A stretch of DNA of 64,000 nucleotides. It comes from Candidatus Levybacteria bacterium RIFCSPHIGHO2_01_FULL_40_16 (GTDB taxonomy: Bacteria > Patescibacteriota > Microgenomatia > Levybacterales > UBA12049). Positions 2,036-51,822 of this stretch are shown in pieces; position 1 is the first letter of the stretch; each line of letters opens with the position of its first letter. Location: NCBI GenBank assembly GCA_001783805.1, contig MFNS01000005.1:1636-65635 (forward strand), in the 5' to 3' direction. The notes beneath the pieces were generated by a model. That model did no database searches and was not told where the DNA came from. It worked only from the letters and a program-made list of their open reading frames with translations. A program made the translations under genes and the position numbers.

Positions 2036-2080
2036 GTTATGTTTTGAATTGGGCTGGGGGGGGTGGGGCGCCCGGGATTT

Positions 2081-2616: not shown

Positions 2617-3780
2617 ATGCAAACATCAACTTCAACTAAAAAAGCAACCTCAATGGCTGATCTGATGAAGAAGGTTGCAGCTGCGAAGACTCCATTTGTT
2701 TCTCCTCACAAAGGCGATATGCTCACGGGAACAATTACCAAATTAACGAGCGGCGAAATTTTGGTGGACATTAATGCCAAAACCGAAGCTGTAGTTTTGG
2801 AAAAAGAAAGGCAGATCATGAACAAAATCCTTACCTCCTACAAAGTGGGGGACAAAGTAGCTGTTCAGGTTCTCAATCCCGAGTCAGACTTTGGTTATCC
2901 GGTTGTTTCTTTGAGACGATCGGTCGGCGATATTACTTGGGACCGTTTGGCAAAATTGCAGAAGAGTCAAGAGCCTGTTGAAGTTAACTTGGATATGGCA
3001 ACCAAAGGCGGATTTTTAGGCACAACTAATGATGGGATTTCCGGATTTTTGCCAAACTCCCATACTTCGAGTCTGGAAAATCCAAATAATCTAATCGGCA
3101 AGAAAATTAAAGTCGTGGTTTTGGAATTAAACAGAGAGCTGAATAAAATTATTTTTTCCCAGAAACAAGTTATGGGTCCGGCGGACTTCCAGAAGTTAAT
3201 TGGTAATTTAAAGGTTGGACAAAAAATTGACGCAGTTGTGTCAAATGTGGCTCCCTTTGGAGTCTTTCTTTCTATCCCGGTTGACCCCGAAGGATCTTCC
3301 CGTTCGGCTTCGGGTACTATTCGTACACGCCTCACGGAGCGATCTGACGGGGCAGGTGACGGCAAATTGGCAGAAGGGTTCATTCATATCTCCGAAATCT
3401 CTTGGGAAAATGTAGAGAATGTTGCCGACCTTTTCAAGCTCGGCGACAAAATTACCGGCGTAGTTACCGGATTTGACAAAGAAAGCAGACGCGTAAACCT
3501 TTCCGTAAAAAGATTATTATCCGATCCGTTTGAGAAAAAATTAGATGAATTCACAATAGATAAAAAAATCAAAGCAAAAGTGATAAGAATTATTGCCACC
3601 GGCGTACTTTTAGACCTTGGAGACAACATTACCGGATTGATCAAGAAAGAAAAAATTCCGGTTAAAACCATTTACAAAGAAGGACAAGGAGTTGACGTTA
3701 CCGTTTCTTCGGTTGATAAAAAAAGACACCGAGTTGAAGTTGCGCCTGTCCTTACCGCAAAACCCATAGGATATAGATAA
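2617..3780 (+). CDS. rpsA: 30S ribosomal protein S1 (short form, 4 S1 domains)
   Basis: Repeated S1 OB-fold signatures (GDMLTGTITKL..., KVGDKVAVQVL..., GKKIKVVVLELN..., KVGQKIDAVVSNVAPFGVFL..., GDKITGVVTGFDKESRRVNLSVK..., KIKAKVIRIIATGVLLDLG...). An AAAGGTG Shine-Dalgarno lies upstream. Confidence 0.8.
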   Translation: MQTSTSTKKATSMADLMKKVAAAKTPFVSPHKGDMLTGTITKLTSGEILVDINAKTEAVVLEKERQIMNKILTSYKVGDKVAVQVLNPESDFGYPVVSLRRSVGDITWDRLAKLQKSQEPVEVNLDMATKGGFLGTTNDGISGFLPNSHTSSLENPNNLIGKKIKVVVLELNRELNKIIFSQKQVMGPADFQKLIGNLKVGQKIDAVVSNVAPFGVFLSIPVDPEGSSRSASGTIRTRLTERSDGAGDGKLAEGFIHISEISWENVENVADLFKLGDKITGVVTGFDKESRRVNLSVKRLLSDPFEKKLDEFTIDKKIKAKVIRIIATGVLLDLGDNITGLIKKEKIPVKTIYKEGQGVDVTVSSVDKKRHRVEVAPVLTAKPIGYR

Positions 3781-3925
3781 AACTCAAAACGCAAAAGTCA
3801 AAGGTCAAAACTACAACTCAAAACTCAAATCTTTAAAGAAAAAGTTTTTAGCTTTGAACTGGGTTTTGAGATTTGCACTTTGAGCTTTGCGCTTATTTAA
3901 TTTCCCGCTTCAATTTTGAGCTTCA
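3781..3925. repeat. Long imperfect (CAAA)n/(TTTG)n palindrome, intergenic (terminator-like)
   Basis: Left arm AACTCAAAACGCAAAAGTCAAAGGTCAAAAC...; right arm GAGATTTGCACTTTGAGCTTTGCGC..., roughly its reverse complement. It is homologous to elements at 47955-48050, 49370-49480, 50510-50640, 29735-29790 and 16295-16400. Confidence 0.55.
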
Positions 3926-8941: not shown

Positions 8942-11710
8942 GTGGAAGCCAATAACTGCGAAAGTTCCTCCGAGCATTAATAGTCCCAGATATTCCAGAT
9001 ACTGCGGCCAGAAGATGATGATAATTTTTTGATTGTTAAATTGTTGAATTGTTAAATTGCTATCAAGGATCCAGCCGTTAGCCCAATTATTTACCAGAAC
9101 ATGCTCTTTTAATTCGTTACCAAACAAAAAAGGGAGTGCATTACTTAGCCAGTTTATGTTTTTAACCTCATAAGCTTTCCACCCTGAATCAAAGGATTGG
9201 GAATAAACAAGAACATTTATATCTTCATTTGAAGCTTTGGAGGAGTAGGTTTCTATCTGTGAAAGTTTAGCGTAATCAAAAGGGTAGACTTCAATTGCCT
9301 TGATGTCGTTTACGCTTGGATTGTTTTTAACGGAGAAATTATTAATATTAATATCAAATCCCACACTCTGATCAATGGGAGGAAGTAAAAAGAGATTTTG
9401 CTTGAATTCTTTTGAGCCGGAAAGATGAGTAAAAAGATCACAACGTTTGGAAATATAGTTGTAGACACACAATCTCAACGGAAGTCCCTGAACATTCCTT
9501 GCATTAATTGAAATAAGATATCCCTGGTTTCTGGGGAAAGAGGTATAGGAAAAATGTTCGCAAAAAGACCCGCCCAGAGAAGAATATTCAATAAATCCGT
9601 CTGATTTTTCCAGAATAATGGTTTTCTGAAAGTTTGTTTTTTCTTGAGAATTTATTGGCGGACAATCATTGTTGGCGTTTGAGGTGATTTTCTGATCCAA
9701 AGTAACGGGGGTGGGGAATGAAGCTAAAATATCTTTGGAAATGATTCTATTTTGATTATCAAGAATATTTCTAAAAGGATAAAAAACTGTGTTTTCTTCA
9801 GAATTGAGATAAGTAATATAGTCATGATATTTTGCGTAAGCAAAATCATCATAAAAAACAGCGGAGGGACCGACCGAAATAGGGTTTTTGATAACACGCA
9901 CTTGCGGATTTTTAAATTCGGTCTCATAAACTAAAAGGTCTCCAAAATGAGCAATTTGCTTGAGCGATGCATCATTATTTAAAAGTTTTTCTGTTTCACC
10001 CTGAAAAAGAACTTCATTATTTTCTCCTTGTTCGGGAGCAATAATGCTTTGATCCCAAAGAATATAGGAAATATCATACTTTTGCAGCACGTTGTTTAGT
10101 TTTTTTTGATCCTGTGAATAGATAGCTTGGGACATTTCCCGGTAATATTGTTCATTTGCCGGGTTCCACCTGTCAAATTCCCGTTCCATTACAGGATCTT
10201 TAAGACCAAACCATAAGAATCCTGCGCCTTGATAGCCCCCGCCTGCAACGCTTGCGCTAGCATTGCGGGCAGGCCAAGAATAATAATTCCAACCCCAAAA
10301 ATTATGAATCGGCAAAGTTGCTACCCGACCGTAAGGCTGATTATTAAGCAGGTTAAAAACAGAGAAATAACCGGAAGGAATATTAACTTTCATCAGGGGA
10401 CTAATGAGATTGCCTTGGAAAGCAGGCAGCATATAATACAGAAAAGCCAAAAAGATTAAAATGAAAGAATACGTATTCAACTTTCTAATTAAAAGTTTTA
10501 TACCGAAAGCAAAATAGCAACTCAGGGCAAGCATCAAAAGGATAGAAAATTTAGTGAAGGGAAAACGTATTGCTTCTTTAAAAAGTGGAATTGTATTTTG
10601 GAGAAAGCTAAACAAGAGCCCAAAAGGAGGATTATCAGTCAGAAGGAAAAAAGTTGCCAGTCCGAAAATTGCCAGCAGACAAAAAGAAATTATATTTTTC
10701 TTAATAACAGAATAAGCCAGTCCCAGAAGAGCGATTAAAAATAATCCATATCCGATAATTAACACAATAGGTTGCTGTAGATGGCTAATCCAGACTTTCA
10801 GGAGGGGTCCGAATTCACCATTACCAACATAAGCGTTCCAGTTAAAAAGGAAATTTTTAAAAATTAAAATATCGGGAATTGTCCCGTAAAGCTTATTATT
10901 CGCAAAAGCCTCTTCGGTGAAAAGAGATTCAATTTTGGAACTGCCGATTTGCCCCCCCTGACTTAGGATGAAATATAAATTAGGCAAAAGCCAAAATGCA
11001 TTGATTAAAAATGTAATTAAAATAATTTTAAGAGAGCTTATCTTAATTTCTTTTTTTCGATGGATAAGATTATAGGCAAAAAGGAATAACAGAAGCGAAA
11101 GGAAATAAGCAAACCAGAGGGTGGAGGTGTGGGCGATTGAGGCAGAGAAAAAAGTGAAAATTGCAAATAGCAAAAGATATCTCTTTAAGCTAGATTGGAG
11201 AAATTGAACAACAAATAAGAACAGCCAGGGAAGTGTGGCGAAATGAGTTGCGAACATTTCCAAGGGTACAAAATAGTGCTGAACTGTTCCTAAATTAAAT
11301 AAATAAAAAAGAGCTCCGCCAAACGAGGAAATTTTATTTTGAAGAGAATCTTCTTTCAAGATACCCCTTTTTATAAAATAATACATTCCCAAAGGTCCTA
11401 AAATTAAAGTAAGAAAAAAATAAGAGTAGCGGAGAAAAGAGAGCGGTAAGATAAACGAAAGGGGATAATAAAGAAGCATTCTGGGAAATTCCGAAGGATG
11501 AGCTTGAGAAGAAAGAGCGCCAAGCCCCTGATGCGATTCCCAAACTCCAAATAGAATTCTCTTAAAATATTCCGGGAAATTAAATTCGGGATGAAGAGTG
11601 TCCCAGCCGGAAAGGATTGTGCCACCTTTATAATTTGCCATCGCCAGAATTAGAGATAGCAAGATTAAAATAAAGACAAAAATATTATTTTTTAATATTC
11701 TTTTCATCAC
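8927..11710 (-). CDS. Large polytopic membrane protein with a C-terminal extracytoplasmic domain (GT-C/YfhO-like glycosyltransferase candidate)
   Basis: 927 aa: about 13 predicted TM helices in the N-terminal 520 aa (first loop GWDTLHPEFNF...WESHQGLG), then a 400-aa soluble domain and a final TM. Its neighbour is a GT2, as in CsbB/YfhO-type pairs. The family call is inference. Confidence 0.55.
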   Translation of the reverse strand: MMKRILKNNIFVFILILLSLILAMANYKGGTILSGWDTLHPEFNFPEYFKRILFGVWESHQGLGALSSQAHPSEFPRMLLYYPLSFILPLSFLRYSYFFLTLILGPLGMYYFIKRGILKEDSLQNKISSFGGALFYLFNLGTVQHYFVPLEMFATHFATLPWLFLFVVQFLQSSLKRYLLLFAIFTFFSASIAHTSTLWFAYFLSLLLFLFAYNLIHRKKEIKISSLKIILITFLINAFWLLPNLYFILSQGGQIGSSKIESLFTEEAFANNKLYGTIPDILIFKNFLFNWNAYVGNGEFGPLLKVWISHLQQPIVLIIGYGLFLIALLGLAYSVIKKNIISFCLLAIFGLATFFLLTDNPPFGLLFSFLQNTIPLFKEAIRFPFTKFSILLMLALSCYFAFGIKLLIRKLNTYSFILIFLAFLYYMLPAFQGNLISPLMKVNIPSGYFSVFNLLNNQPYGRVATLPIHNFWGWNYYSWPARNASASVAGGGYQGAGFLWFGLKDPVMEREFDRWNPANEQYYREMSQAIYSQDQKKLNNVLQKYDISYILWDQSIIAPEQGENNEVLFQGETEKLLNNDASLKQIAHFGDLLVYETEFKNPQVRVIKNPISVGPSAVFYDDFAYAKYHDYITYLNSEENTVFYPFRNILDNQNRIISKDILASFPTPVTLDQKITSNANNDCPPINSQEKTNFQKTIILEKSDGFIEYSSLGGSFCEHFSYTSFPRNQGYLISINARNVQGLPLRLCVYNYISKRCDLFTHLSGSKEFKQNLFLLPPIDQSVGFDININNFSVKNNPSVNDIKAIEVYPFDYAKLSQIETYSSKASNEDINVLVYSQSFDSGWKAYEVKNINWLSNALPFLFGNELKEHVLVNNWANGWILDSNLTIQQFNNQKIIIIFWPQYLEYLGLLMLGGTFAVIGFHLRRR

Positions 11711-14949: not shown

Positions 14950-16293
14950 ATGCCTTATAAAAAAACTACGCCTCAAAAAGATTCAGTTAAGGTACAAGTA
15001 GATAAAATAATCGGTTCTCCTTCCATTGCTTCCGCCTCCGCCAAGGCTTCGGCGGACAAGAAAACATTGGAGGGCAAACCTTCTGCGGCAGTTCTTGCTA
15101 TAAAGCCTATTTCTGTAACACCAGCGGCTTCACCAGCTCAAGCTCAAGCCCAGCCAATCAACAATTTTGCCTATCGGCAAGAGCCCTCGATTACGGTTGA
15201 GGTTTCGGGAATTTTAGATATTCAGCCGGAAGGACACGGATTTTTAAGACCTAAATTTATTCCTTCTCAACGTGATGTTTATATTTCCCAATCTCAGATA
15301 CGCCGTTTCATGCTTCGTCCCGGAGATTTGATCAAGGGAGTCGGGCGTCCTCCCAAAGATACGGAACGTTACTTTGGATTATTAAAGGTAGAAACCGTTA
15401 ATAGCATACCGGCGGATGATTCTTTGCGGCGGCCTTATTTTGATGATCTGACTCCTGTTTATCCCAAAAAACAAATCATCCTATCAACCGGCAAGCTTCC
15501 TTTGTCAACCCGCATAATTGATCTGGTTTCTCCGATTGGATTTGGGCAAAGAGGAATGATTGTCTCGCCTCCCAAAGCCGGGAAAACGACAATTCTCAAA
15601 GAAATTGCCGCCGGAGTTGCTCAAAATTATCCCAAAGCACATTTAATGGCAGCTTTAATCGGGGAGCGCCCTGAAGAGGTAACGGACATTGCCCAATCTG
15701 TCAAAGGAGATGTAGTTGCTTCGCATTTCGATGAGCCGCCGGATAATCAAACCAGAGTTGCAGAAATAACTCTGGAGCGGGCAAAAAGACTGGTGGAAAC
15801 GGGAATAGACGTGATCATTCTCTTAGATTCAATTACCCGTTTAGCCCGCGCCTACAATCTGTCTGTCGCGCCATCCGGCCGTACCCTATCCGGAGGTTTC
15901 GACCCTGCAGCCTTATGGCCGGCCAAAAAATTCTTCGGAGCAGCCAGAAATTGCCAGGAGGGCGGATCTCTAACGATTATTGGAACCGCTTTGGTTGACA
16001 CTGGATCCCGCATGGATGATTTAATTTACGAAGAATTTAAAGGCACTGGAAATTTGGAATTGCATTTAGATAGGAGACTGGCTGACCGTAGGATCTTCCC
16101 TGCAATTGACATTACCCGTTCTGGAACAAGGCAGGAAGAGCTATTGTTATCTGAAAAAGATCTTAAAAAAGTCTCGACAATGCGCCGGATGATTGATATG
16201 CTCGGACCGGAAGAGCGGACCAGCATTTTTGTGGAAAGATTGTCCAAAACTACCACCAACGAAGAATTCCTCGAAACTCTCGGAAAAGGCTAG
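14950..16293 (+). CDS. rho: Transcription termination factor Rho
   Basis: Walker A GQRGMIVSPPKAGKTT, the Q/R loops and C-terminal RecA-like core motifs. The N-terminus is a low-complexity Ser/Ala/Pro-rich segment rather than the usual helical Rho_N subdomain. Confidence 0.95.
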   Translation: MPYKKTTPQKDSVKVQVDKIIGSPSIASASAKASADKKTLEGKPSAAVLAIKPISVTPAASPAQAQAQPINNFAYRQEPSITVEVSGILDIQPEGHGFLRPKFIPSQRDVYISQSQIRRFMLRPGDLIKGVGRPPKDTERYFGLLKVETVNSIPADDSLRRPYFDDLTPVYPKKQIILSTGKLPLSTRIIDLVSPIGFGQRGMIVSPPKAGKTTILKEIAAGVAQNYPKAHLMAALIGERPEEVTDIAQSVKGDVVASHFDEPPDNQTRVAEITLERAKRLVETGIDVIILLDSITRLARAYNLSVAPSGRTLSGGFDPAALWPAKKFFGAARNCQEGGSLTIIGTALVDTGSRMDDLIYEEFKGTGNLELHLDRRLADRRIFPAIDITRSGTRQEELLLSEKDLKKVSTMRRMIDMLGPEERTSIFVERLSKTTTNEEFLETLGKG

Positions 16294-18420: not shown

Positions 18421-18437
18421 TGGTATAAAGTATATTC

Positions 18438-29792: not shown

Positions 29793-32318
29793 ATGCCAAA
29801 ACTCAAAAGTATTACCGCAGATGCGGGATCCCGACTGAAAACTATCAGCGGGATAAACGAAAAGCATAATCCTTCAGAAATTGAACTTAAGTGGCAGAAG
29901 AGGTGGGAAGAAGCCAAAATTTATTCCCCAAATCTGGATAAAGCTCAAAAGCCTTTTTACAACCTCATGATGTTTCCGTATCCTTCGGCAGAGGGAATGC
30001 ATGTTGGCAACATGTATGCTTTCACAGGTGCAGATGTTTACGGCCGGTTTCAGCGAATGCAGGGAAAAGCGGTTTTTGAGCCGATTGGCCTGGACGGATT
30101 TGGAATTCACAGTGAAAATTACGCTATCAAAGCAAACAAGCATCCGGTCGAACAAGCCAGAACCTCTGAGAAAAATTTTTACAGACAGTTGAAAAGCATT
30201 GGTAACGGTTTTGATTGGACGCGGACTGTAGAGACCTACAAGCCTGAGTACTACAAATGGACGCAGTGGCTGTTTATCCAATTATTTAAGGCGGGTTTAG
30301 CCTACCGCAAAAAAGCTCCGGTTAATTTTTGCCCGTCCTGCAAGACTGTCTTAGCAGACGAACAAGTTGAGGATGGTTTGTGTGAGCGCTGTAATTCGAT
30401 AGCTGAGAAAAGAGATCTGGACCAGTGGTTTTTCAAGATTACGAAGTATGCTGATCGATTACTAGCTGGTTTGAGCCAGATTGATTGGGCGGAAAAAGTT
30501 AAAACCGCCCAAAAACAATGGATAGGGAAAAGCGAAGGGGTCAATCTTCGCTTCAAAATTAAAGATATGGATATTCATTTTGAAATGTTTGATTCTGTAC
30601 CCCAAACGTTTATGGCACAAACATTTACAGTTATTGCTCCCGAGCACAAAATGGTTTATGAATTAGTTAAGGGTACAGAACATGAAAAACCTGTCATGGA
30701 ATTTATAAAAACGATCAAAAAGAAAAAGTCGATTAATAAGTTTGATTTGGAGAAAAAACCTGAGGGTATATTTACCGGAAGATATCTGGAATATACGCCA
30801 ACAGGCAAGTCAATCCCAATTTGGGTTGCTTCATACGCTATTTACGGATATGGAACTGGCGTTGTTAACTGTAGTGCTCATGATGAGCGAGATTTTATCT
30901 TTGCTAAAAGATATGGCATATCTTTGCACCCAGTTATGTTTCCCAAGGATCCTGTGGAGGCTAAAAAAGTAAAAAATCTTGAATATTGCTATCATCATGC
31001 CGAAGATGGAATCTTACAGGAGCCAGTAGAATTCAAAGGGAGAAAATGGGAAGAGGTAAGAGGGGATATTGTACACTATATAGAAAAACAGGGCTATGGC
31101 AAAGCGCAAGCGCAATATCATCTGCGGGATTGGTTGATTTCAAGACAGAGGTATTGGGGTCCGCCAATCCCGATGATTTATTGCCAGACTTGCAGTTGGC
31201 AGCCGGTTCAGGAGAAAGATTTGCCGGTTAAGCTGCCATTCATAGAGGATTACAAGCCTTTGGGTACGGGGCAGGCGCCTTTGGCGAGCCATCCTGAATT
31301 TTACAAAACAAAATGCCCGAAATGCAAAGGAGACGCCAAAAGAGAAACTGATGTCTCAGATACTTTTCTGGACAGCGCCTGGTATTTCTTAAGATACGTC
31401 TCAACTGATATAGAAACTATGGCTTTTGATACAGAAAGGGTAAAAAAATGGTTGCCGGTCAATATGTATGTTGGCGGAGCAGAGCATTCGGTGCTGCACC
31501 TTTTGTATTCGCGGTTTATCACGATGTGTCTTCACGATTTGGGGCTGATTAGCTTCGAAGAGCCGTTTACGAAGTTCCGCGCGCATGGACTGATAGTCAA
31601 GGATGGCGCGAAAATGAGCAAAAGCAAAGGGAATATAGTGGTGCCTGATGCTTATATCAAGAAATTTGGCGCAGACAGCCTGCGCTGTTATCTTATGTTC
31701 ACCGGACCATTTGATATGGGCGGAAATTTCAGAGATTCTGGAATTGAAGGTATGAGTAGGTTTTTGAAGCGAGTCTGGGCTTTAGTCCACCGGAAAAAGG
31801 ACTCTATGAACAATAAAAGCGGCTCCAAGAAAAGTTTATTAGGATCTAATGAGGCTCTTGTTTTTATGAATAAAACAATTAAAAAAGTAACAGGAGACAT
31901 AGGGAATCTAAAATACAATACTGCTATAGCAGGTCTAATGGAATATTATAATTTTTTGTCTTCGCAAAAATATATTGCGATCGAAGAATTCAGAGTTTTA
32001 TTAAAACTTCTAGCACCTTTGGCTCCTCATATTGCTGAAGAATTGTGGGAGTATATTGGCGAAAAATTTTCTATCCATCAACAATTTCTCCCGGATTTTA
32101 ACGAAAGTATTCTAAAAGCTTCTTATCTGACAATAGCGATTCAGATTAATGGAAAACTTCGAGGTGTCTTAACAGTAACCAGCCAATTCTCAAAAGATAA
32201 AGACAGGGTTGAGCAGTTGGCAAAGGAGAGTGATAAAATAAAAAAATATTTGAAGGCCAAAGAGATTAAAAAAATTATTTATATTGAAGGTAAGGTAATC
32301 AATTTTGTGGTCACATAA
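29793..32318 (+). CDS. leuS: Leucyl-tRNA synthetase
   Basis: HIGH-type motif (P..AEGMHVGNMYAFTGADV), KMSKS (KMSKSKGN), and editing and anticodon-binding regions. The N-terminal ~25 aa are encoded by a (CAAA)n repeat. Confidence 0.95.
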   Translation: MPKLKSITADAGSRLKTISGINEKHNPSEIELKWQKRWEEAKIYSPNLDKAQKPFYNLMMFPYPSAEGMHVGNMYAFTGADVYGRFQRMQGKAVFEPIGLDGFGIHSENYAIKANKHPVEQARTSEKNFYRQLKSIGNGFDWTRTVETYKPEYYKWTQWLFIQLFKAGLAYRKKAPVNFCPSCKTVLADEQVEDGLCERCNSIAEKRDLDQWFFKITKYADRLLAGLSQIDWAEKVKTAQKQWIGKSEGVNLRFKIKDMDIHFEMFDSVPQTFMAQTFTVIAPEHKMVYELVKGTEHEKPVMEFIKTIKKKKSINKFDLEKKPEGIFTGRYLEYTPTGKSIPIWVASYAIYGYGTGVVNCSAHDERDFIFAKRYGISLHPVMFPKDPVEAKKVKNLEYCYHHAEDGILQEPVEFKGRKWEEVRGDIVHYIEKQGYGKAQAQYHLRDWLISRQRYWGPPIPMIYCQTCSWQPVQEKDLPVKLPFIEDYKPLGTGQAPLASHPEFYKTKCPKCKGDAKRETDVSDTFLDSAWYFLRYVSTDIETMAFDTERVKKWLPVNMYVGGAEHSVLHLLYSRFITMCLHDLGLISFEEPFTKFRAHGLIVKDGAKMSKSKGNIVVPDAYIKKFGADSLRCYLMFTGPFDMGGNFRDSGIEGMSRFLKRVWALVHRKKDSMNNKSGSKKSLLGSNEALVFMNKTIKKVTGDIGNLKYNTAIAGLMEYYNFLSSQKYIAIEEFRVLLKLLAPLAPHIAEELWEYIGEKFSIHQQFLPDFNESILKASYLTIAIQINGKLRGVLTVTSQFSKDKDRVEQLAKESDKIKKYLKAKEIKKIIYIEGKVINFVVT

Positions 32319-36750: not shown

Positions 36751-37084
36751 GCAATGATTATTTTAAATTTGACATGAGACTTATAGCGTGGCATAAGCTG
36801 TTCATGGGAAAAGCAGAAATCTTAGAAAGAATTAATAGGCTAGGGCAGAATCTATTCCAGAGAGCAAGATCTAAGGAAAAAACGCTCCCAAAGAAAATCC
36901 CTACGAAAGGATAAAGGTAATATATGAATAGTTGCCCAAAAATTCAGATTCGATTGTAAGTACAAAAACTTTATTGATTAAGAACAAATCAGGCCGAAAA
37001 TCAAAGATTTACTTTTATCCATCTATTTGTTCGGATTCGATGTATGCTCAGACGGGCTGAGTTGGAAAGTTAACTAATTTTTTT

Positions 37085-37282
37085 ACTTACTTTTGACCGC
37101 AAAAGTAACAAAACTCTGCGAGCGGTAAAGTCGCGCTACATTTTTTCGCTCGTTTTGTCGGGTGATTTGCACCCCCTCCTCGATTCCGATCGAATCGGAA
37201 CGAGGAATCCCCCTGACAACTCGCTCAAAAATGCCTCCTGCCTGCCGGCAGGCAGGTAACGCGCTTTGTTTAATGCTCGCAC
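37085..37282 (+). repeat. Structured dispersed repeat, copy C
   Basis: First hairpin TTACTTTTGACCGCAAAAGTAA (G-C to T-A covariation relative to other copies). GGGTGATTTGCACCC and CCTCG...CGAGG stems enclose an internal hairpin TTCCGATCGAATCGGAA. Ends CGCTTTGTTTAATGCTCGCAC, followed immediately by R-family copy R3. Confidence 0.7.
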
Positions 37283-37293
37283 TTATTTTTAAT

Positions 37294-39526: not shown

Positions 39527-39928
39527 TTACATTTTAAGAGCTTGTTTTACTTTGTTAACCAGATCCTGGGGTTCAACTTGATATTTAAAGATATAGTCCA
39601 TAGCTCCGTTATTGATTGCTTCTTTGACCAATTCTTCCTGTGAAAAATTTGAGAGTATAAGAACCGGAATATTTTGTGTATCTGAGTCCATTTTTAGAGT
39701 CCGCAAGACTTCATTACCGGAGATGTCCGGAAGAACTTGATCCAAGAGTATCAGATCGGGTTTCTCCGAACGGGCCTTGTCAAGACCACTTTTTCCGTTC
39801 AAAGCAAAAATAGTTTCAAAACCGGCTTTTTGCAGCGCAGTTTCAAAAACCGCGCTTAGATTTTCATCATCATCAATAATCAAAACCTTCACTACCATCA
39901 GGCTATCAGTTACGCCAAGTCTTGTCAA
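39527..39928 (-). CDS. Response regulator, receiver domain only (CheY-like)
   Basis: VLIIDDDENL...KPDLILLDQVLPDISG...with conserved Asp, Thr and Lys positions. No output domain. Confidence 0.9.
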   Translation of the reverse strand: MTRLGVTDSLMVVKVLIIDDDENLSAVFETALQKAGFETIFALNGKSGLDKARSEKPDLILLDQVLPDISGNEVLRTLKMDSDTQNIPVLILSNFSQEELVKEAINNGAMDYIFKYQVEPQDLVNKVKQALKM

Positions 39929-40025
39929 TCCCTCTTCGTCGCTCCGCCGCTGAAGCTTTGAAGCGCAAGCGGCAAGACTTCGGATAGGGATTGATGCCTC
40001 CGTAGCCTCTGGCGAAGGGGTATCA

Positions 40026-41879
40026 ATGGGTTTTTACTATGTTTGTGATAAAATAAATATTGCGATGGATATAAAAGCGGAAATCATTTCGGTTATTAAG
40101 CAGTCTTTGGGGGAATTTACAAAGGAAAGAATCGAATTTTTGGTTGAAGAGCCGGAAAATGAAAGTTTTGGCGACTACTCGTCGAACATCGCACTTGCTC
40201 TGTTCTCAAAATCAAAAATCAAAAATCAAAAATCAAAAACACAGTTCAAAATTCAAAAGTTAAGAAGTCCCCCGGAGTTGGCACAAGAAATTATAGATAA
40301 ATTCATAATTCATGATTCGCAATTCATGATTCATTTTGACCGAGTTGAAGCAGTGAAGCCGGGATTTATCAATTTCTATCTCTCGCAAGATTATTTATTT
40401 TCACAACTGACAAGAATTTTGGAAGAAAAAGAAAAATTTGGTTCTAAAAGTGAAAATCCGAACAAGAAAGTTGTTGTTGAGTATTCCTCGCCAAATATAG
40501 CTAAACCCTTTACTGTTGGTCATCTTCGGTCAACAATTATCGGAGACGCCATCGCCAATTTGTTGCAAGCAAACGGGTGGAAAGTTTACCGGGATAATCA
40601 TCTGGGAGACTGGGGAACACAATTCGGAAAACAAATTTATGCCATCAAAACTTGGGGAGATGAAAACGAAATTAACAAAGTTGAGAATCCGGTCAGGGAA
40701 TTGGTGGCTTTATATGTCAAGTTTCACGAGGAAGCGGAAAGGAATCCGAAATTAGAAGAAAAAGCGCGGGAATGGTTTAAAAAGCTTGAAGACGGAGATG
40801 TAGAAGCGAGAAGACTTTGGAAAAAATGCGTTGAATGGTCGCTTGTGGAATTTAAAAAGATTTATGAAAAACTGAGAGTTGAATTTACGGAAAACAATGG
40901 ACTGGGTTATGGGGAAGCCTTTTTCGAAGATAGAATGACAGGAGTAATTAGGGAGCTTAAAGAAAAAAAATTACTCAAAAAAGGAGAACGGGGAGCGGAA
41001 TTGGTTTTCTTTGAAAAAGATAAATATCCGCCTCTAATGATTCTAAAGCAGGATGGAGCAACTTTGTATGCAACCCGGGACTTGGCAACGGACAAATTTA
41101 GGCTAGATAAATATGGAAAAGATATTGTCATAATCAACGAAGTTGGAGTAGAGCAGGCTTTATATTTCCGGCAGCTTTTTAAGGTTGAAAAAATGCTGGG
41201 GTGGGTTAAGGAAGGGCAGAGAATTCACAAAAGACATGGCTTGTATAGATTCAAAGACCAAAAAATGTCCACGCGCAAGGGGAATACAATTTGGCTTGAA
41301 GAAGTTTTGCAAGAAGCGGTTAAAAGAGCGGAAAAACTTGGTTCGGAAAATAAGGAAATAGCGGAAGAAGTTGGAATTGGGGCAATTAAGTGGAATGATT
41401 TGAAAAGAACTTCGGAACAAGATATTGTTTTTGACTGGGACGAAATTCTCAATATGCAGGGAGATTCCGGACCGTATTTGCAGTATGCGTTCGCAAGAAC
41501 GCAGAGCGTTCTTTTGAAAGCAACAAGTGATAAGAAAAAAGAAGCAAGTAGCAAAAATAAAATTAAAAATGAGATTGGCCTTGCAAGGATAATGCTTGCA
41601 AGGCCTCTCCTTGCAAGACTAGAGACGGAAGAGATTTCATTATTGCGGGCGTTGAATAGATTTCCGGAAGCGGTTAGTCAGGCGGGGGAGAAGTTTGCGC
41701 CGAATATTTTGTGCAATTATTTGTTTGGTCTGGCTCAAAAGTTTAATTTGTTTTACCAAAAACATAAGATCATTGGCTCGGAAAATCAGGATTTTCGCCT
41801 TAAACTAACTGCCGGAGTCGGGCAAATCATCAGAACAGGTCTCAACCTTTTGGGGATTGCTGCGCCGGAGAAGATATAG
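40026..41879 (+). CDS. argS: Arginyl-tRNA synthetase
   Basis: The Arg_tRNA_synt_N region, class I core (SSPNIAKPFTVGHLRSTIIGD) and C-terminal DALR anticodon-binding domain are present. It carries in-frame insertions derived from the (AAATCAA)n microsatellite and from a CCTTGCAAGG palindrome. Confidence 0.95.
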   Translation: MGFYYVCDKINIAMDIKAEIISVIKQSLGEFTKERIEFLVEEPENESFGDYSSNIALALFSKSKIKNQKSKTQFKIQKLRSPPELAQEIIDKFIIHDSQFMIHFDRVEAVKPGFINFYLSQDYLFSQLTRILEEKEKFGSKSENPNKKVVVEYSSPNIAKPFTVGHLRSTIIGDAIANLLQANGWKVYRDNHLGDWGTQFGKQIYAIKTWGDENEINKVENPVRELVALYVKFHEEAERNPKLEEKAREWFKKLEDGDVEARRLWKKCVEWSLVEFKKIYEKLRVEFTENNGLGYGEAFFEDRMTGVIRELKEKKLLKKGERGAELVFFEKDKYPPLMILKQDGATLYATRDLATDKFRLDKYGKDIVIINEVGVEQALYFRQLFKVEKMLGWVKEGQRIHKRHGLYRFKDQKMSTRKGNTIWLEEVLQEAVKRAEKLGSENKEIAEEVGIGAIKWNDLKRTSEQDIVFDWDEILNMQGDSGPYLQYAFARTQSVLLKATSDKKKEASSKNKIKNEIGLARIMLARPLLARLETEEISLLRALNRFPEAVSQAGEKFAPNILCNYLFGLAQKFNLFYQKHKIIGSENQDFRLKLTAGVGQIIRTGLNLLGIAAPEKI

Positions 41880-43069: not shown

Positions 43070-44344
43070 ATGAATTTTCATAGGAAGGTTTTGGCTAATG
43101 GCTTGCGCGTCTTGACTATTCCCATGCCCTCATTTGAGTCTGCTACAGTGATGGTCATGGTTGGGGCAGGGAGCCGTTATGAAACCCGGCTTAACAGTGG
43201 GATATCTCATTTTCTAGAACACATGGCTTTTAAGGGGACAGAGAAGCGTCCAACAGCCATGGAAATCTCCAGTCTGATCGACGGAATGGGAGGAGAATTC
43301 AATGCCTCAACCGGCAAGGAAGCGACTGCTTTTTACATCAAATCCGAAGCAAGCAAAGCAGAACTTTCCTTAGATGTGCTATCGGACATGCTGAAAAATT
43401 CCAAACTTGATTCCGGCGAAATTGAAAAAGAAAAAGGCGTGATTATTGAAGAGATCAACATGTGCGAAGACAATCCCATGAGAGATATCGGTGATGTTTA
43501 TGAGCGCTTGGTATATGGAGATACGCCGTTGGGGTGGAATATTGCCGGAGAAAAAGAGATTGTCAAAAAAGTGACTCGGGAAGATTTCATTAGCTACATT
43601 AAAAGCCTATATAGTCCGCATAACATAACAGTGGTCATTGCAGGCGGAATTGAGAGTAAAAAAGCCGTGGAATTAGTAGAAAAATATCTGGGAGATATGA
43701 AGAAGTTTGATACATTACGATATGATGAGTATGCAGAATTACAAATAAAACCGGAAATTTTTGTCAAGACCAAGAAAACCGAGCAAGTGCATATCGCAAT
43801 TGGCTTTAAAACCGTAAAAAATGAACATCCTGATAAATATCCTCTGGAGGTTTTGGCCGCAATCTTGGGCGGAGGAATGAGTTCCAGGCTTTTTCATGAA
43901 GTCAGAGAGAAAAGGGGAATGGGGTATTATATTGGAACCGGTTCCGAAGCTTATCAGGATGCGGGAAGTTTAATCACCACAGCCGGAATTGATCCTAAAA
44001 GAGTCAAGGAAGCGCTTAAAATTATTCTTGAAGAACACCAAAAAATCTCAAATCTCAAATCTCAAATCTCAAAAAGCGAGTTGAAAAAGGCAAAGGAATA
44101 CTTGAAGGGACATATGGTTTTGGGGCTTGAGAACAGCCGGTCGGTGGCGTATTACTACGCCGTACAGGAGCTTTTGGAGAAAAAAATTGACAATCCTGAC
44201 AAAATAATGAAAAAAATAGATGCCGTAACTGTTGAGCAAATTAAAAATGTAGCGAAAAAATATTTTGTTGAGAAAAATTTAAACATAGCCATCATCGGAA
44301 ATTTTACTTCTGGACAAGAGTTTCAAAACTTGCTAAAGTTATAA
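43070..44344 (+). CDS. M16-family zinc peptidase (insulinase-like)
   Basis: Inverted zinc motif HFLEHMAFKGT (HxxEH). It contains a KISNLKSQISKSELKK insertion encoded by the (TCTCAAA)n repeat. Confidence 0.9.
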   Translation: MNFHRKVLANGLRVLTIPMPSFESATVMVMVGAGSRYETRLNSGISHFLEHMAFKGTEKRPTAMEISSLIDGMGGEFNASTGKEATAFYIKSEASKAELSLDVLSDMLKNSKLDSGEIEKEKGVIIEEINMCEDNPMRDIGDVYERLVYGDTPLGWNIAGEKEIVKKVTREDFISYIKSLYSPHNITVVIAGGIESKKAVELVEKYLGDMKKFDTLRYDEYAELQIKPEIFVKTKKTEQVHIAIGFKTVKNEHPDKYPLEVLAAILGGGMSSRLFHEVREKRGMGYYIGTGSEAYQDAGSLITTAGIDPKRVKEALKIILEEHQKISNLKSQISKSELKKAKEYLKGHMVLGLENSRSVAYYYAVQELLEKKIDNPDKIMKKIDAVTVEQIKNVAKKYFVEKNLNIAIIGNFTSGQEFQNLLKL

Positions 44345-44416
44345 TTAGACTACAGTCTACAGGCTACGGGCTGCAGCTTGATGCGGTGGACCGTAGGCGG
44401 TAGTCAGTAGACGAGT

Positions 44417-44884: not shown

Positions 44885-44909
44885 CTTTGTTATCTGATCT
44901 TTATTTTTC

Positions 44910-45077
44910 TTGTACTTTTGACCGCAAAAGTACCAAAACTCTGCGAGCGGTAAAGTCGCGCTAAAATTATCTCGTTCGCTAGTCGGGTGATTTGCACCCC
45001 CTCCTCGACAAGTTTGCGAGGAATCCCCCTGACAGCTCACTTGACAATTTCTTGACGCGCTTTGTTTAATACTCGCA
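44910..45077 (+). repeat. Structured dispersed repeat, copy D
   Basis: TTGTACTTTTGACCGCAAAAGTACC...TCGGGTGATTTGCACCCCCTCCTCGACAAGTTTGCGAGGAATCCCCCTGACAGCTCAC...CGCGCTTTGTTTAATACTCGCA. Confidence 0.7.
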
Positions 45078-45226
45078 TTTTTAAATTATTCATGCATTCA
45101 ACTGCGAACGACGGTCAATTTTTTTTGAGACGAGGAAAATTGCAAAGAGTATTAATTCAACCAAAACGCAGCATTGACCAAAGGCGTGCAGGTCTTGATC
45201 TCAAAATTTTCTGCTAGAATAAGTTC

Positions 45227-47951: not shown

Positions 47952-48051
47952 TACAACCTCAAAAATCAAATATCAAAGATCAAAAACAAGTTAAAAGTTT
48001 AAAACTTTAAGCTTTGAATTAAGCTTTGAAGTTTGATTTCTAAACTTTGAG

Positions 48052-49242: not shown

Positions 49243-49486
49243 TATATATCAAAAGCTTCTAAAAACAAAGCCATTTTGTACTCTTGCATTGTTGAAGAAA
49301 TAGAGTATATAATGACTCTACTCGCTAAGGCTTGCGGTTTTTTTGACATAGTTTGTAGATAGATTGATATGGTTATAAAGCTCAAAACGCAAAGCTCAAA
49401 GTTCAAAATTTAAGCGCAAAGTTAAAAGCTTTTAAGTTTGAGATGCAGATTTGAGTTTTGACATTTGAGTTTTGAGTTTTTAAATT

Positions 49487-50509: not shown

Positions 50510-50880
50510 ATTCTAAATACAAAATTACAAGTTCCAAATAATATCAAAATCACAATCATCAAAATTCAAAACGATTTGGAGCTTAGAATTTGGAAATTTG
50601 AATTTATTTGGGATTTGAGATTTTGAAGTTGTAATTTAAATAATTTAGGCTTATAATATTTCATGCTGACGTTTTCAGGGTTGTGAAAATTTTCAAAAGT
50701 CAAGACTTTTCACGGGACAATAGAATTATAGTATTTTGCAAAGTAAGACAATTAGAACCAATGGTTTTATGACCACGGAAGCACGAAGTTTGGAAGCAAA
50801 AAATGAGTATATTAAGTATTCAAAATGACTATTAATGCAAATATCTGGAGAAGTGCGATAAAACTTATAGTAGTAAAATT

Positions 50881-51822
50881 ATGATAGGTAAGAAAAATAT
50901 ACTTGGCGTCGGCATAACAGATGCTACCAAAGAAGAAATCCTAGAGTATATTGTCAAAAATCTTGAAAATTTCCATAAAAAGCTCTATTTTGTGACCCCA
51001 AACCCGGAATTTCTAGTCCTTGCAAGTAAAAATCCTGCCTTCAAAAACATCCTAAATAAAGCTGATTTAGCCTCGGCTGACGGCATTGGGGTAATAATTG
51101 CCGCTAAAATCTTGGGTAAGCCACTGAAAGAGCGTTTTGCCGGTGTAGATCTTGTGAAAAGCCTCTGTGAAAGGATAGCAGAAAAGCCTATAACAGTGGG
51201 CTTTCTGGGAGGGAGGAGTGGAGTAGCAAAGAAGACTGCCGAGTGCTTACTAAAAATGCATCCAAAATTGAAAGTTACTTTTGCCGGGGAAGAATGGCCA
51301 AAGAACGTTAAGGCTCGGCAACCACGCGTTTCAGATGACGCTCAGCCTGGTTTTCGGGGTCCTGTCAAAAGTAATCCTTCCGCCCACCTTCGTCAAGACT
51401 ACGGCGGGCAAGCCAGTGCAAGCGCTGCTTTACCCCTCGAAGCTTTTAAGCGAAGTGGGGTCGGAAGCCCTTCCTCTTTTGCCACCCCTCAAGATGCAAG
51501 TTTTAATAATTTAACAATAGAACAATTTAACAATAGAACAATTGATATCCTGTTCGTTGCTTTTGGTGCGCCCAAACAGGAATTTTGGATTAATGAAAAT
51601 CTTAATAAAATTCCTGTAAAAATTGCCATCGGAGTTGGCGGTGCATTTGATTATCTTAGCGGAAAAATACCAAGAGCACCGGGTTTCGTCAGAAATGTCG
51701 GACTGGAATGGTTGTTCCGTTTACTAGTCCAACCCTGGCGTCTCAAACGCCAACTTGCGCTGATAGAGTTTATCTGGTTAGTTATTAAAGAAAAATTAAG
51801 TAAATCCCATAGCACGACTTAA
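50881..51822 (+). CDS. WecB/TagA/CpsF-family glycosyltransferase (GT26) with a ~75-aa internal insertion
   Basis: N-terminal ILGVGITDATKEEILEYIV...VTPNPEF and C-terminal FVAFGAPKQEFWI...LEWLFRL are the conserved TagA blocks. The GC-rich insertion between them contains a 16-mer tandem repeat (TTAACAATAGAACAAT x2). Confidence 0.8.
   Translation: MIGKKNILGVGITDATKEEILEYIVKNLENFHKKLYFVTPNPEFLVLASKNPAFKNILNKADLASADGIGVIIAAKILGKPLKERFAGVDLVKSLCERIAEKPITVGFLGGRSGVAKKTAECLLKMHPKLKVTFAGEEWPKNVKARQPRVSDDAQPGFRGPVKSNPSAHLRQDYGGQASASAALPLEAFKRSGVGSPSSFATPQDASFNNLTIEQFNNRTIDILFVAFGAPKQEFWINENLNKIPVKIAIGVGGAFDYLSGKIPRAPGFVRNVGLEWLFRLLVQPWRLKRQLALIEFIWLVIKEKLSKSHSTT

What the first reader, a model, noticed from the sequence alone, without database searches (positions are those of the whole stretch)
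40190..40262. Repeat elements inserted in-frame into conserved genes (argS, an M16 peptidase, tagA), comparable to Rickettsia palindromic elements
ArgS carries SKSKIKNQKSKTQFKIQKL encoded by (AAATCAA)n at 40190-40262, inside the N-terminal add-on domain. It also carries GLARIMLARPLLARLETEE encoded by GGCCTTGCAAGG...CTTGCAAGGCC...CCTTGCAAG at 41571-41625, just before the DALR-domain FPE motif. The M16 peptidase carries KISNLKSQISKSELKK encoded by (TCTCAAA)n at 44040-44090. The TagA-like GT26 has an ~75-aa GC-rich insertion at 51290-51545. It contains AAGCGAAG-type palindrome pieces and a TTAACAATAGAACAAT x2 tandem, and it sits between the two conserved TagA blocks. Related palindromes also occur intergenically (see the GC-rich palindrome and (CAAA)n findings). 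The picture is of mobile or expanding repeats tolerated as peptide insertions in essential enzymes.
Basis: partly seen in the sequence, partly recalled or inferred. Interest (0 to 1): 0.65.

Follow-up and report, generated by a model that had tools for sequence, protein, structure and literature searches.

The report
Heptamer repeats and palindromes inside genes
In this Levybacteria (CPR) genome, runs of 7-base tandem repeats and GC-rich palindromes sit in-frame inside housekeeping genes: the 7-base runs grow and shrink in place by slippage, and only one palindrome looks like a dispersed, Rickettsia-style element.

Summary
The sequences exist as described, a few bases off the stated coordinates. 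They are two different things.

(1) Heptanucleotide tandem arrays. These are in argS (two sites) and the M16 peptidase. Period-7 arrays occur 17-25 times per 100 kb in Levybacteria, against 0.1 in non-CPR loci. Most are intergenic, as inverted pairs that form long hairpins. At one M16 site, seven species carry seven different units at the same length, which indicates concerted evolution. An independent assembly of the same species differs over 4.9 kb only by one lost unit (-7 nt), which frameshifts M16. These are resident slippage-driven repeats, not mobile elements. The M16 array is not an insertion.

(2) GC-rich palindromes.
- The argS DALR-linker hairpin is conserved at the orthologous site, with compensatory changes.
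- The tagA insert (net +64 aa, predicted disordered) contains a 139-nt palindrome. An 84-86%-identical in-frame copy lies in a Mur-ligase-like gene of another Patescibacteria MAG. This element does behave like a Rickettsia palindromic element.

It is a new variant of known kinds (long SSRs and in-frame palindromic repeats), of moderate interest.

The parts
40206..40262 (+). argS heptamer array 1, (TCAAAAA)n. It encodes SKSKIKNQKSKTQFKIQKL in the N-terminal add-on domain.
   Evidence: TRF gives period 7, 7.4 copies. Orthologues carry other units at the same site (GAATCAR, GAATTAA, AAATCCG, AATGATA, AGTATAA) or none. AF2 pLDDT is below 50 at residues 56-59, and the 51-60 block averages 54.
40297..40336 (+). 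argS heptamer array 2, (AATTCAT)n. It encodes KFIIHDSQFMIHF.
   Evidence: TRF gives period 7, 5 copies. The array is shared with L083, L084 and L001. L081 has (AATACTT)n and L086 has a GC palindrome plus (AGTTCAR)n. A perfect array would contain TAA in one frame, and the imperfect GATTCGC unit removes it. The segment is modelled with high confidence (pLDDT block 81-90 = 89).
41577..41617 (+). argS GC-rich hairpins in the DALR linker: GGCCTTGCAAG/CTTGCAAGGCC and CTTGCAAGG/CCTTGCAAG. They encode GLARIMLARPLLAR.
   Evidence: These are the longest perfect GC hairpins in the window, with fold z = -3.6. Orthologous hairpins are AGCTTCGCAAGG/CCTTGCGAAGCT in L081 and CTCGCAAGG/CCTTGCGAG in L084, and both arms change together. 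The site is +17 aa against E. coli ArgRS. Residues 497-516 have pLDDT below 50.
44041..44075 (+). M16 peptidase heptamer array, (AAATCTC)n. It encodes KISNLKSQISK. It covers a native segment and is not an insertion.
   Evidence: TRF gives 4.4 copies at 100%. Seven species have seven units at equal length. The same-species assembly L087 lacks exactly one unit and is otherwise identical over 4873 nt; this frameshifts the gene. The segment aligns to 3HDI with only +2 aa.
51313..51353 (+). tagA insert, older left part, encoding ARQPRVSDDAQPGF. It is the left arm of a larger palindrome seen in many Levybacteria TagA orthologues.
   Evidence: The RQPRVSDDA / RLPHVADDA motif occurs in many orthologues, with FNSSESGLPR as the right-arm counterpart. 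In L081 the arms are GCATTTCAGATGA ... TCATCTGAAAGC.
51354..51492 (+). tagA 139-nt imperfect palindromic element, encoding RGPVKSNPSAHLRQDYGGQASASAALPLEAFKRSGVGSPSSFATPQ.
   Evidence: It matches itself in reverse (nhmmer E = 0.0018). The arms are conserved in L088 and L089, and the centre is 48 nt longer in the window and L088. A second in-frame copy lies in the Mur-ligase-like protein P0260 / locus L090 (86% aa identity, 83.8% over 37 aa by tblastn; DNA alignment). Only 2 of 6 frames are open. TagA residues 138-215 have pLDDT below 50.
51508..51543 (+). tagA octamer / 16-mer tandem, (TTAACAAT/AGAACAAT)n. It encodes NNLTIEQFNN, which is native TagA helix and not insert.
   Evidence: TRF gives period 16, 2.2 copies, 100%. 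The peptide aligns with ENKIIEEINN of 7MPK.
9032..9059 (-). The same octamer array, (TTAACAAT)n, in-frame near the C-terminus of an unrelated 927-aa ORF. It encodes NLTIQQFNN.
   Evidence: TRF gives period 8, 3.5 copies. It is an inverted match to 51508-51555 (I4). The ORF has no Pfam family.
3779..3898 (.). Intergenic heptamer palindrome, (AAAACTC)n ... (TTTGAGN)n, at the 3' end of gene 2617-3780.
   Evidence: Fold z = -3.7.
44350..44412 (.). Intergenic heptamer palindrome, (CTACAGN)n with its inverse, directly after the M16 stop.
   Evidence: Fold z = -2.8.
47954..48051 (.). Intergenic heptamer palindrome between the convergent sortase and PEGA genes. L081 has a palindrome with different units at the same place.
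   Evidence: Fold z = -4.4.
49377..49480 (.). Heptamer palindrome in the mreB 5' leader, (AAAGCTC)n / (TTTGAGN)n. It is absent from L081, L088, L001 and L002.
   Evidence: I3. Intergenic comparison. Fold z = -3.6.
50520..50626 (.). Heptamer palindrome after the mreB stop. L081 has a GC-rich palindrome at this position; L088 and L089 have nothing.
   Evidence: (I6). Fold z = -3.9.
15014..15062 (+). Weak partial match to the left arm of the tagA element, read in a different frame (SASAKASADK) in the N-terminal region of a rho-like gene.
   Evidence: nhmmer with the element HMM gives E = 0.01. Alignment, translation. This is tentative.
39901..40030 (.). Unique GC-rich imperfect palindrome in the divergent promoter region upstream of argS.
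   Evidence: GC island. It matches itself in reverse (E = 0.001) and has no other copy.

Best explanation
Two DNA-level processes act across this Levybacteria genome. Wherever a protein tolerates it, their products are simply translated.

Process 1: heptanucleotide arrays.
- Simple-sequence arrays with a 7-nt unit arise and persist by slipped-strand mispairing. The bias towards 7-nt units is very strong and lineage-specific.
- Most arrays are intergenic, as inverted pairs that form long AT-rich hairpins. Many of these lie at gene ends.
- Inside ORFs, only arrays that are stop-free in all three phases of the sense strand survive.
- Repeated gain and loss of units homogenises each array. The unit sequence therefore turns over between species while the position (and in M16 the length) stays fixed.
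- A change of one unit shifts the reading frame. In an essential gene such as argS, only net changes that keep the frame can be fixed.

Process 2: GC-rich palindromes.
- These sit at the same permissive loops.
- The 139-nt tagA element is a dispersed repeat that can lie in-frame in unrelated genes, like a Rickettsia palindromic element.
- The small argS hairpin is a resident structure whose two arms co-evolve.

Shown directly: the repeats, their enrichment, unit turnover at orthologous sites, the -7-nt variant, the second copy of the tagA element, and loop or disordered placement in the models.

Inferred: slippage as the mechanism, a terminator-like role for the intergenic hairpins, and mobility of the tagA element.
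For: Enrichment of period 7:
- The window has 11 period-7 arrays, against 0-2 for other periods and about 0 in shuffles.
- Per 100 kb: window 17.2, Levybacteria relatives 24.9, other CPR 2.3, non-CPR 0.1.

In-place evolution:
- argS sites 1, 2 and 3 carry different heptamer units, or none, in nine orthologues.
- The M16 site has 7 species, 7 units and equal length. L001 and L002, whose M16 proteins are 88% identical, still have unrelated units.

Slippage:
- L087, an independent assembly of the same species, has 0 mismatches over 4873 nt and a single 7-nt gap in the M16 array. The product ends KISNLKSQKAS*.

ORF filter:
- The coding arrays are stop-free on the sense strand but not on the antisense strand. 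The AATTCAT array is interrupted exactly where TAA would otherwise arise.

Intergenic arrays:
- They are hairpins, with z from -2.8 to -4.4.

Protein placement:
- ArgS residues 56-59 and 497-516, and TagA residues 138-215, are the only segments with pLDDT below 50.

tagA element:
- Self-complementary.
- Conserved in L088 and L089.
- Second copy in a Mur-ligase-like gene: P0260 / L090, a Patescibacteria MAG.

argS hairpin:
- The arms change together: TTCGCAAGG/CCTTGCGAA, CTCGCAAGG/CCTTGCGAG, CTTGCAAGG/CCTTGCAAG.

Literature:
- Over-representation of heptanucleotide SSRs in bacteria, and the polymerase-slippage proposal (Mrazek et al. 2007), as cited in PMC4692102 and PMC4679880.
Against: - Only one copy-number variant was seen, in one metagenome assembly. 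ArgS and TagA cluster members show no repeat polymorphism.
- Slippage does not explain why the unit is 7 nt, or why arrays persist at the same site across proteins only 62-79% identical.
- Homogenising an array inside an essential ORF needs frame-preserving steps, which should be rare.
- The relatives' loci were chosen around argS, so their array density is partly ascertained.
- For the tagA element, only one extra copy was found, in another organism. There was no other copy in the window or in related loci, and the metagenome scan added nothing new.
- The whole tagA insert does not fold better than shuffles (z = -0.3).
Confidence: 0.7

Rival explanations
1. All the segments, heptamer arrays included, are copies of mobile palindromic elements of the RPE or MITE type that transposed into the genes.
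For: - The tagA element has a second in-frame copy in an unrelated gene.
- The heptamer palindrome in the mreB leader is specific to the window's lineage.
- Different lineages carry either a heptamer palindrome or a GC palindrome at the same intergenic spot after mreB.
- GTCATTCTGG...CCAGAATGAC elements (peptide SGQARMT) recur at the argS hot spots of other species.
Against: - The heptamer arrays in genes are single direct arrays, not palindromes.
- Units differ between species at the same codons, and between loci within the window.
- The window's unit is present once in the short allele.
- The observed change is exactly one unit.
- The M16 array replaces native sequence without adding length.
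Confidence: 0.12
2. The intragenic heptamer arrays are maintained because they are useful. One possibility is contingency loci that switch genes such as M16 off and on by changes of one unit. Another is arrays of sites for a protein that binds heptamers on single-stranded nucleic acid.
For: - The unit length is not a multiple of 3 and lies inside an ORF.
- A natural -1-unit frameshift allele splits M16 into 328 aa plus 87 aa.
- An array has been kept at one M16 site in seven species even though the unit sequence turns over completely. This is hard to explain by neutral SSR decay.
- OB-fold cold-shock proteins are reported to bind heptamer repeats (PMC4679880).
Against: - argS is essential, so switching it off would be lethal.
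- Only one variant was seen, and there is no evidence of reversibility.
- The gene classes are not those typical of phase variation.
- The units are too diverse for a sequence-specific binder.
Confidence: 0.12
3. The segments are merely ancestral low-complexity, lysine/serine-rich linkers maintained at the protein level, with no special DNA process behind them.
For: The peptides are hydrophilic and lie in loops. The M16 segment is native in length.
Against: - Exact DNA periodicity of 7 is kept while the peptides change completely: KISNLKSQISK, KIADRKSQIAK, KIKDKGLRIKD, KVQRSKFKVQS.
- The same periodicity dominates non-coding DNA.
- Distant orthologues lack the argS and tagA segments.
Confidence: 0.03
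4. The heptamer arrays are footprints of repeated insertion and excision of a transposon that makes 7-bp target duplications.
For: The unit length is fixed at 7, and the one observed change is exactly 7 nt.
Against: - Arrays reach 5-7 units and come as inverted pairs.
- No transposase-related sequence was seen next to any array.
- Hundreds of independent hits at the same sites would be needed.
Confidence: 0.03

Closest known systems
Rickettsia palindromic elements (RPE; Ogata et al. 2000, Claverie and Ogata 2003; from my own knowledge, and discussed in PMC10969869 and PMC1779305)
   Same: - Palindromic DNA of about 100-150 nt, read through in-frame inside conserved enzymes.
- Present or absent among orthologues.
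- Placed in surface loops.
- The same element occurs in unrelated genes in the same reading frame (the tagA element and the Mur-ligase copy).
   Different: - Only two host genes are known here, against dozens of copies per Rickettsia genome.
- No consensus family has been demonstrated within one genome.
- There is no reason to expect sequence relatedness to RPEs.
- The heptamer arrays, which form the headline of the finding, are not palindromic elements at all.
Long simple-sequence repeats with heptanucleotide units in bacteria: Mrazek, Guo and Shah 2007; cyanobacterial STRR (Calothrix/Nostoc); GGGAATC in Xanthomonas (PMC4692102); TAACTGA in Beggiatoaceae (PMC4679880)
   Same: - Tandem 7-nt units, strongly over-represented relative to other unit lengths.
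- Mostly intergenic, and often arranged as inverted pairs.
- Length and sequence vary between close relatives.
- Polymerase slippage is the proposed cause.
   Different: - Here there is no single favoured heptamer; many A/T-rich units occur.
- Arrays lie inside ORFs of housekeeping genes (argS, M16).
- They stay at orthologous codon positions across species while the unit turns over.
- The lineage is a CPR phylum, for which my literature searches found no such report.
Phase-variable contingency loci (SSRs in ORFs of Haemophilus, Neisseria, Helicobacter)
   Same: The unit length is not divisible by 3 and lies inside an ORF. Loss of one unit frameshifts and truncates the product, as in the M16 variant.
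   Different: The host genes are housekeeping enzymes, not surface or restriction-modification genes. Reversible switching and any benefit are not shown.
Tandem repeats in Borg elements that create disordered protein regions (PMC9879509)
   Same: DNA tandem repeats arise locally, evolve quickly and add disordered segments to proteins.
   Different: According to that work, Borg intragenic repeats have unit lengths divisible by 3. Here the unit is 7 nt, so three units make one 7-aa peptide period and single-unit changes are frameshifts.
REP/BIME elements and MITEs found within genes (PMC3733652, PMC10969869)
   Same: Short GC-rich hairpins lie at gene ends, with occasional in-frame intragenic copies.
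   Different: The argS hairpin and the argS-upstream palindrome are unique sequences in the DNA examined. No REP-associated transposase (RAYT) gene was noticed, but none was specifically searched for.

Membership tests
RPE-like in-frame palindromic repeat | The element is an imperfect palindrome of about 100-150 nt. | tested here: met
   tagA 51354-51492 (139 nt) matches its own reverse complement (nhmmer E = 0.0018), and a nested stem appears in the folds of the window, L088 and L089. This is not met by the heptamer arrays in argS and M16, which are direct tandem arrays.
RPE-like in-frame palindromic repeat | Many homologous copies are dispersed in one genome. | tested here: inconclusive
   There is no second copy in the 64-kb window or in about 125 kb of related loci. 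HMM hits are only weak and partial (window 15014-15062 at E = 0.01; L085 12520-12598 at E = 0.029). One clear copy lies in another organism's Mur-ligase-like gene. The rest of the genome could not be searched.
RPE-like in-frame palindromic repeat | Copies lie in-frame inside unrelated protein-coding genes without disrupting them. | tested here: met
   TagA (the Pfam WecG match is split in two) and P0260 (Mur_ligase_C / FOL3_C) carry the same 37-38-aa peptide at 84-86% identity in the same frame.
RPE-like in-frame palindromic repeat | The insertion is lineage-specific and absent from distant orthologues. | tested here: met
   T. italicus TagA has 11 residues where the window has 75. Levybacteria TagA orthologues range from 235 to 318 aa at this site.
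RPE-like in-frame palindromic repeat | The inserted peptide lies on the protein surface, away from the fold. | tested here: met
   In the AF2 model, TagA residues 138-215 have pLDDT below 50 and no secondary structure, between confident flanks. This is a prediction only.
Simple-sequence repeat (microsatellite-like) locus | Head-to-tail copies of a short unit, more frequent than chance. | tested here: met
   TRF arrays. Period-7 excess over other periods and over shuffles.
Simple-sequence repeat (microsatellite-like) locus | Copy number changes in whole units between close relatives. | tested here: met
   L087 differs from the window by a single 7-nt gap in 4873 otherwise identical bases. This is one case only.
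Simple-sequence repeat (microsatellite-like) locus | Concerted evolution: units within an array resemble each other more than they resemble orthologous units. | tested here: met
   M16 site: AAATCTC, about AATTTCT, AAAGTTC, AGAATTC, AAAATTC, ARATCGC and AAGGATT in seven species. argS sites.
Phase-variable contingency locus | An SSR in an ORF or promoter whose unit changes switch expression. | tested here: inconclusive
   The -7-nt allele truncates M16. No second allele, no frequency estimate and no evidence of reversion are available.
Phase-variable contingency locus | The host genes are dispensable and usually surface- or defence-related. | tested here: not met
   argS is an essential housekeeping gene. 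M16 is a soluble peptidase homologue.

The most novel reading that the evidence does not exclude
Levybacteria may have a lineage-specific mechanism that creates or maintains heptanucleotide arrays genome-wide. Candidates are a property of the replicase or repair system, or a protein that reads 7-nt units. Under this reading, the arrays kept for long periods at fixed codon positions in housekeeping genes are functional. Examples would be population-level on/off switches such as the M16 -7 allele, or nucleic-acid binding sites. They would not be mere mutational debris.
Probability: 0.15. Interest if true: 0.75.

Novelty: new variant of a known kind. Interest (0 to 1): 0.55.

Why it matters
CPR bacteria have small genomes and few repair functions, and how their proteins acquire lineage-specific insertions is poorly understood.

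This locus shows, at single-base resolution, two DNA-level sources of such insertions:
- Heptamer slippage arrays. Three 7-nt units make one 7-aa peptide period.
- In-frame palindromes.

The locus also offers a clean natural system for a long-standing open question: why 7-nt units dominate long bacterial simple-sequence repeats. In Levybacteria the arrays are roughly 100 times denser than in the non-CPR loci sampled here. They sit at orthologous sites that can be compared across many metagenome-assembled genomes, and one unit-loss allele was already found in an independent assembly of the same species.

There are practical consequences. These arrays cause frameshifted gene calls and contig breaks in metagenome assemblies, and they add spurious low-complexity peptides to protein family alignments.

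Tried and rejected
- Cluster members (at least 90% identity) of ArgS, TagA and M16 were aligned to look for repeat-number polymorphism. The 417 vs 424 aa M16 lengths are only alternative start codons. ArgS and TagA show none. Only P0257 is a true unit-loss allele.
Relatives had to be fetched one by one instead. One look-up returned no DNA.
- The last word-indexed protein search, with the 46-aa tagA element peptide, returned nothing. It did not even return TagA itself, so it is uninformative.
- The single metagenome DNA scan, with a 28-base core of the element, found only the already known Mur-ligase contig and one tagA orthologue.
- Two long hits of the representative search (P0258, P0259) are repetitive proteins matched through biased composition, and I discarded them.
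- Folding the whole tagA insert gave z = -0.3, so the insert as a whole is not unusually structured. Only the inner 139 nt are palindromic.
- A systematic scan of 34 indel regions of at least 5 aa, between window proteins and their orthologues, showed that most indels are not repeat-derived (for example the 47-aa LeuRS insert). Heptamer-type indels were confined to argS. The idea that all Levybacteria indels come from repeats is therefore rejected.
- CTTCGG is only about 2-fold enriched (50 against 26.5 expected). This is a minor feature of the GC-rich islands.
- Assembly artefact is rejected. The same ArgS sequence occurs under three NCBI accessions and on many contigs.
Full report
**What the window is.** ArgS and TagA homologues identify the source as a Candidatus Levybacteria genome (CPR/Microgenomates; Rifle MAG RIFCSPLOWO2_01_FULL_39_24).
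- argS most likely starts at 40065 and ends at 41879. The upstream in-frame stretch overlaps what looks like an extended -10 box.
- The M16 peptidase is 43070-44344.
- The WecG/TagA glycosyltransferase is 50881-51822.

**Checking the observation.** All four sequences are there.
- argS array 1: TRF reports (AAAATCA) x7.4 at 40208-40258.
- argS array 2: (AATTCAT) x5 at 40300-40334.
- M16 array: (AAATCTC) x4.4 at 44043-44073.
- tagA tandem: a perfect 16-nt x2.2 repeat at 51508-51543.
- argS hairpins: 41577-41617 holds the two longest perfect GC-rich hairpins of the whole window, with arms of 11 and 9 nt. The RNA fold z-score is -3.6.
- tagA 51283-51500 has GC 0.56, against 0.40 for the window.

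**Are they insertions?**
- ArgS site 3 is 17 aa longer than in E. coli ArgRS.
- The ArgS N-domain is about 17 aa longer than the Pfam model.
- TagA has 75 residues where T. italicus TagA has 11.
- The M16 peptide KISNLKSQISKSELKK aligns with native sequence of B. halodurans 3HDI with only 2 extra residues. It is not an insertion.
- The tagA tandem encodes NNLTIEQFNN, which aligns with the native helix ENKIIEEINN. It is not an insertion either.

**The heptamer arrays are a genome-wide, lineage-specific feature.**
- With one fixed criterion, the window has 11 period-7 arrays and three period-8 loci. Other periods from 4 to 16 give 0-2, apart from period 14 (three hits), which is a multiple of 7. 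Shuffles give about 0.
- Per 100 kb the density is 17.2 in the window, 24.9 in ten loci of Levybacteria relatives, 2.3 in 16 other CPR loci, and 0.1 in 1.14 Mb of non-CPR loci. The relatives' loci were chosen around argS, so their figure is partly ascertained.
- Coding sequence covers 88% of the window, yet most arrays are intergenic or at gene edges.
- The intergenic arrays come as inverted pairs that fold into 30-45-bp hairpins, with z from -2.8 to -4.4.
- These hairpins lie after gene 2617-3780, after M16, between the convergent sortase and PEGA genes, after mreB, and in the mreB leader. The one in the mreB leader is absent from four relatives.

**The intragenic arrays evolve in place.** Codon alignments of argS from nine Levybacteria give the following.
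- Site 1 (after NIALALF) carries TCAAAAA in the window. It carries GAATCAR, GAATCAG, GAATTAA, AAATCCG, AATGATA and AGTATAA in L083, L084, L001, L086, L082 and L081, and no array in L085 and L002.
- That short allele, A(S/A)KILKK followed by N or S, recurs in seven of the 31 aligned orthologues.
- Its DNA, gctTCAAAAAttttg, already contains one copy of the window's unit.
- Site 2 behaves in the same way.
- At the M16 site, seven species have arrays of the same length with seven different units. L001 and L002, whose M16 proteins are 88% identical, still have unrelated units.
- This is concerted evolution of a resident array, not repeated arrival of one mobile sequence.

**Direct evidence for unit-wise change.** An independent ENA assembly of the same species (L087) is identical to the window over 4873 nt except for one missing heptamer in the M16 array. 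This shifts the frame (KISNLKSQKAS*) and splits the gene into 328 and 87 codons.

**Selection on the reading frame is visible.**
- The coding arrays are stop-free in all three phases on the sense strand only.
- A perfect AATTCAT array would create TAA. The one deviant unit, GATTCGC, removes it.

**Published background.** Heptanucleotide units are known to be the most over-represented class of long bacterial SSRs, with polymerase slippage proposed as the cause. The published cases (Xanthomonas GGGAATC, Nostoc, Calothrix STRR, Beggiatoaceae TAACTGA) are intergenic and use one favoured unit.

**The GC-rich palindromes are a separate class.**

*The argS hairpin.*
- It is orthologous in L081 (AGCTTCGCAAGG/CCTTGCGAAGCT), L084 (CTCGCAAGG/CCTTGCGAG) and the window (CTTGCAAGG/CCTTGCAAG).
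- Both arms change together, and all are read as (F/L)AR..LA(K/R)LE.
- The window has one extra 15-nt arm copy.
- The right arm encodes residues that align with native E. coli sequence. The left arm may therefore have arisen as an inverted copy of it; this is inference.
- Other species carry heptamer arrays or GTCATTCTGG...CCAGAATGAC elements (peptide SGQARMT) at the same hot spot.

*The tagA insert is composite.*
- It has an older arm, RQPRVSDDA, which is shared by many orthologues. The counterpart, FNSSESGLPR, is seen in others.
- It also has a 139-nt imperfect palindrome at 51354-51492. This is conserved in L088 and L089, with a centre 48 nt longer in the window and L088.
- A search of 1.84 billion representative proteins with the 75-aa insert peptide gave one meaningful hit. 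It is the partial C-terminal Mur-ligase/FolC-like protein P0260 from a Patescibacteria MAG.
- P0260 carries PPAHLRQDYGGQASAALLLEALKRSGVGSPSSGATR immediately before LIILDGAHNP. Identity is 86% and 83.8% over 37 aa by tblastn.
- By eye, the DNA alignment is roughly 90% identical over about 105 nt. That is closer than the orthologous tagA copy of L088.
- The Mur-ligase contig begins inside the element.
- Only two of the element's six frames are open, and both copies use the same one.
- This is the behaviour that defined Rickettsia palindromic elements.
- However, no further copy was found in the window, the related loci or the metagenome scan. There were only weak partial matches, including one in the rho-like gene that is read in another frame.

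**Placement in the proteins.**
- The ArgS AlphaFold2 model has mean pLDDT 84.7. Its only segments below 50 are residues 56-59 (inside array 1) and 497-516 (the hairpin peptide).
- The peptide from array 2 is modelled confidently.
- TagA residues 138-215 are below 50 with no secondary structure, between well-modelled flanks.

**Not every indel is repeat-derived.** Of 34 indel regions of at least 5 aa between window proteins and their orthologues, heptamer-type ones were confined to argS.

**Conclusion.**
- The headline feature is a slippage-driven heptanucleotide array. It is part of a striking Levybacteria-wide excess of 7-nt repeats, and it is not RPE-like.
- The RPE analogy holds, provisionally, for the tagA palindrome.
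- Why the unit is 7 nt remains unexplained. So does the persistence of arrays at fixed codon positions while their sequence turns over.

Noticed in passing
window 1863-2040, 18435-18640, 37079-37290, 44904-45085 (all + strand, intergenic): Four copies of a conserved element of about 215 nt that looks structured. It has a GTACTTTTG/CAAAAGTAC hairpin, a long-range closing stem, and a variable-length hairpin flanked by CCTCCTCRAC/YGAGGAAT. RNAalifold predicts 35 pairs, 8 with compensatory changes. There is no Rfam match at gathering score, and none at E<=1 for the one copy tested. It could be a new ncRNA or a MITE-like repeat.
   Followed up: partly
window 9032-9059 (- strand ORF 8927-11710) and 51508-51543; L090 425-452: The octamer array (TTAACAAT)n gives almost the same peptide in unrelated proteins: NLTIQQFNN in a 927-aa ORF and NLTIEQFNN in TagA. 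A related CAATACAGCAATT run lies in the Mur-ligase-like gene of L090. In each case it sits just before a hydrophobic beta-strand-like segment.
   Followed up: partly
L081 18889-18975 (after mreB): L081 carries a GC-richer palindrome (GTCATGCTGAATTTATCTCAGCATC ... GATCCTGAAACAAGTTCAGGATGA) exactly where the window has a heptamer palindrome and where L088 and L089 have nothing. The two kinds of hairpin seem to occupy the same post-gene niche.
   Followed up: no
L084 M16 array (locus L084, about 7240-7300): A 21-nt GC-rich piece (ccacttcgcagcgaggcgagc, peptide HFAARRA) is inserted in-frame in the middle of the (AGAATTC)n array of the M16 orthologue. This is a GC element nested inside a heptamer array.
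   Followed up: no
window 29793-32318 (LeuRS), residues about 447-494 of the alignment: A window-specific, non-repetitive 47-aa insertion (EAKKVKNLEYCYHHAEDGILQEPVEFKGRKWEEVRGDIVHYIEKQGY) is absent from four Levybacteria orthologues. It is not repeat-derived, and its origin is unknown.
   Followed up: no
window 20869-25314 (- strand, 1481-aa ORF): This large ORF combines an N-terminal phage-integrase SAM-like domain with a Peptidase_G2 autoproteolytic domain. It also contains GC-rich islands (for example 20899-20994 and 24573-24623) and short heptamer runs. L081 has an orthologous ORF.
   Followed up: no
window, whole: CTTCGG (a UUCG-type tetraloop core) occurs 50 times against 26.5 +/- 5 expected. 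Many copies lie in the GC-rich islands inside genes.
   Followed up: partly
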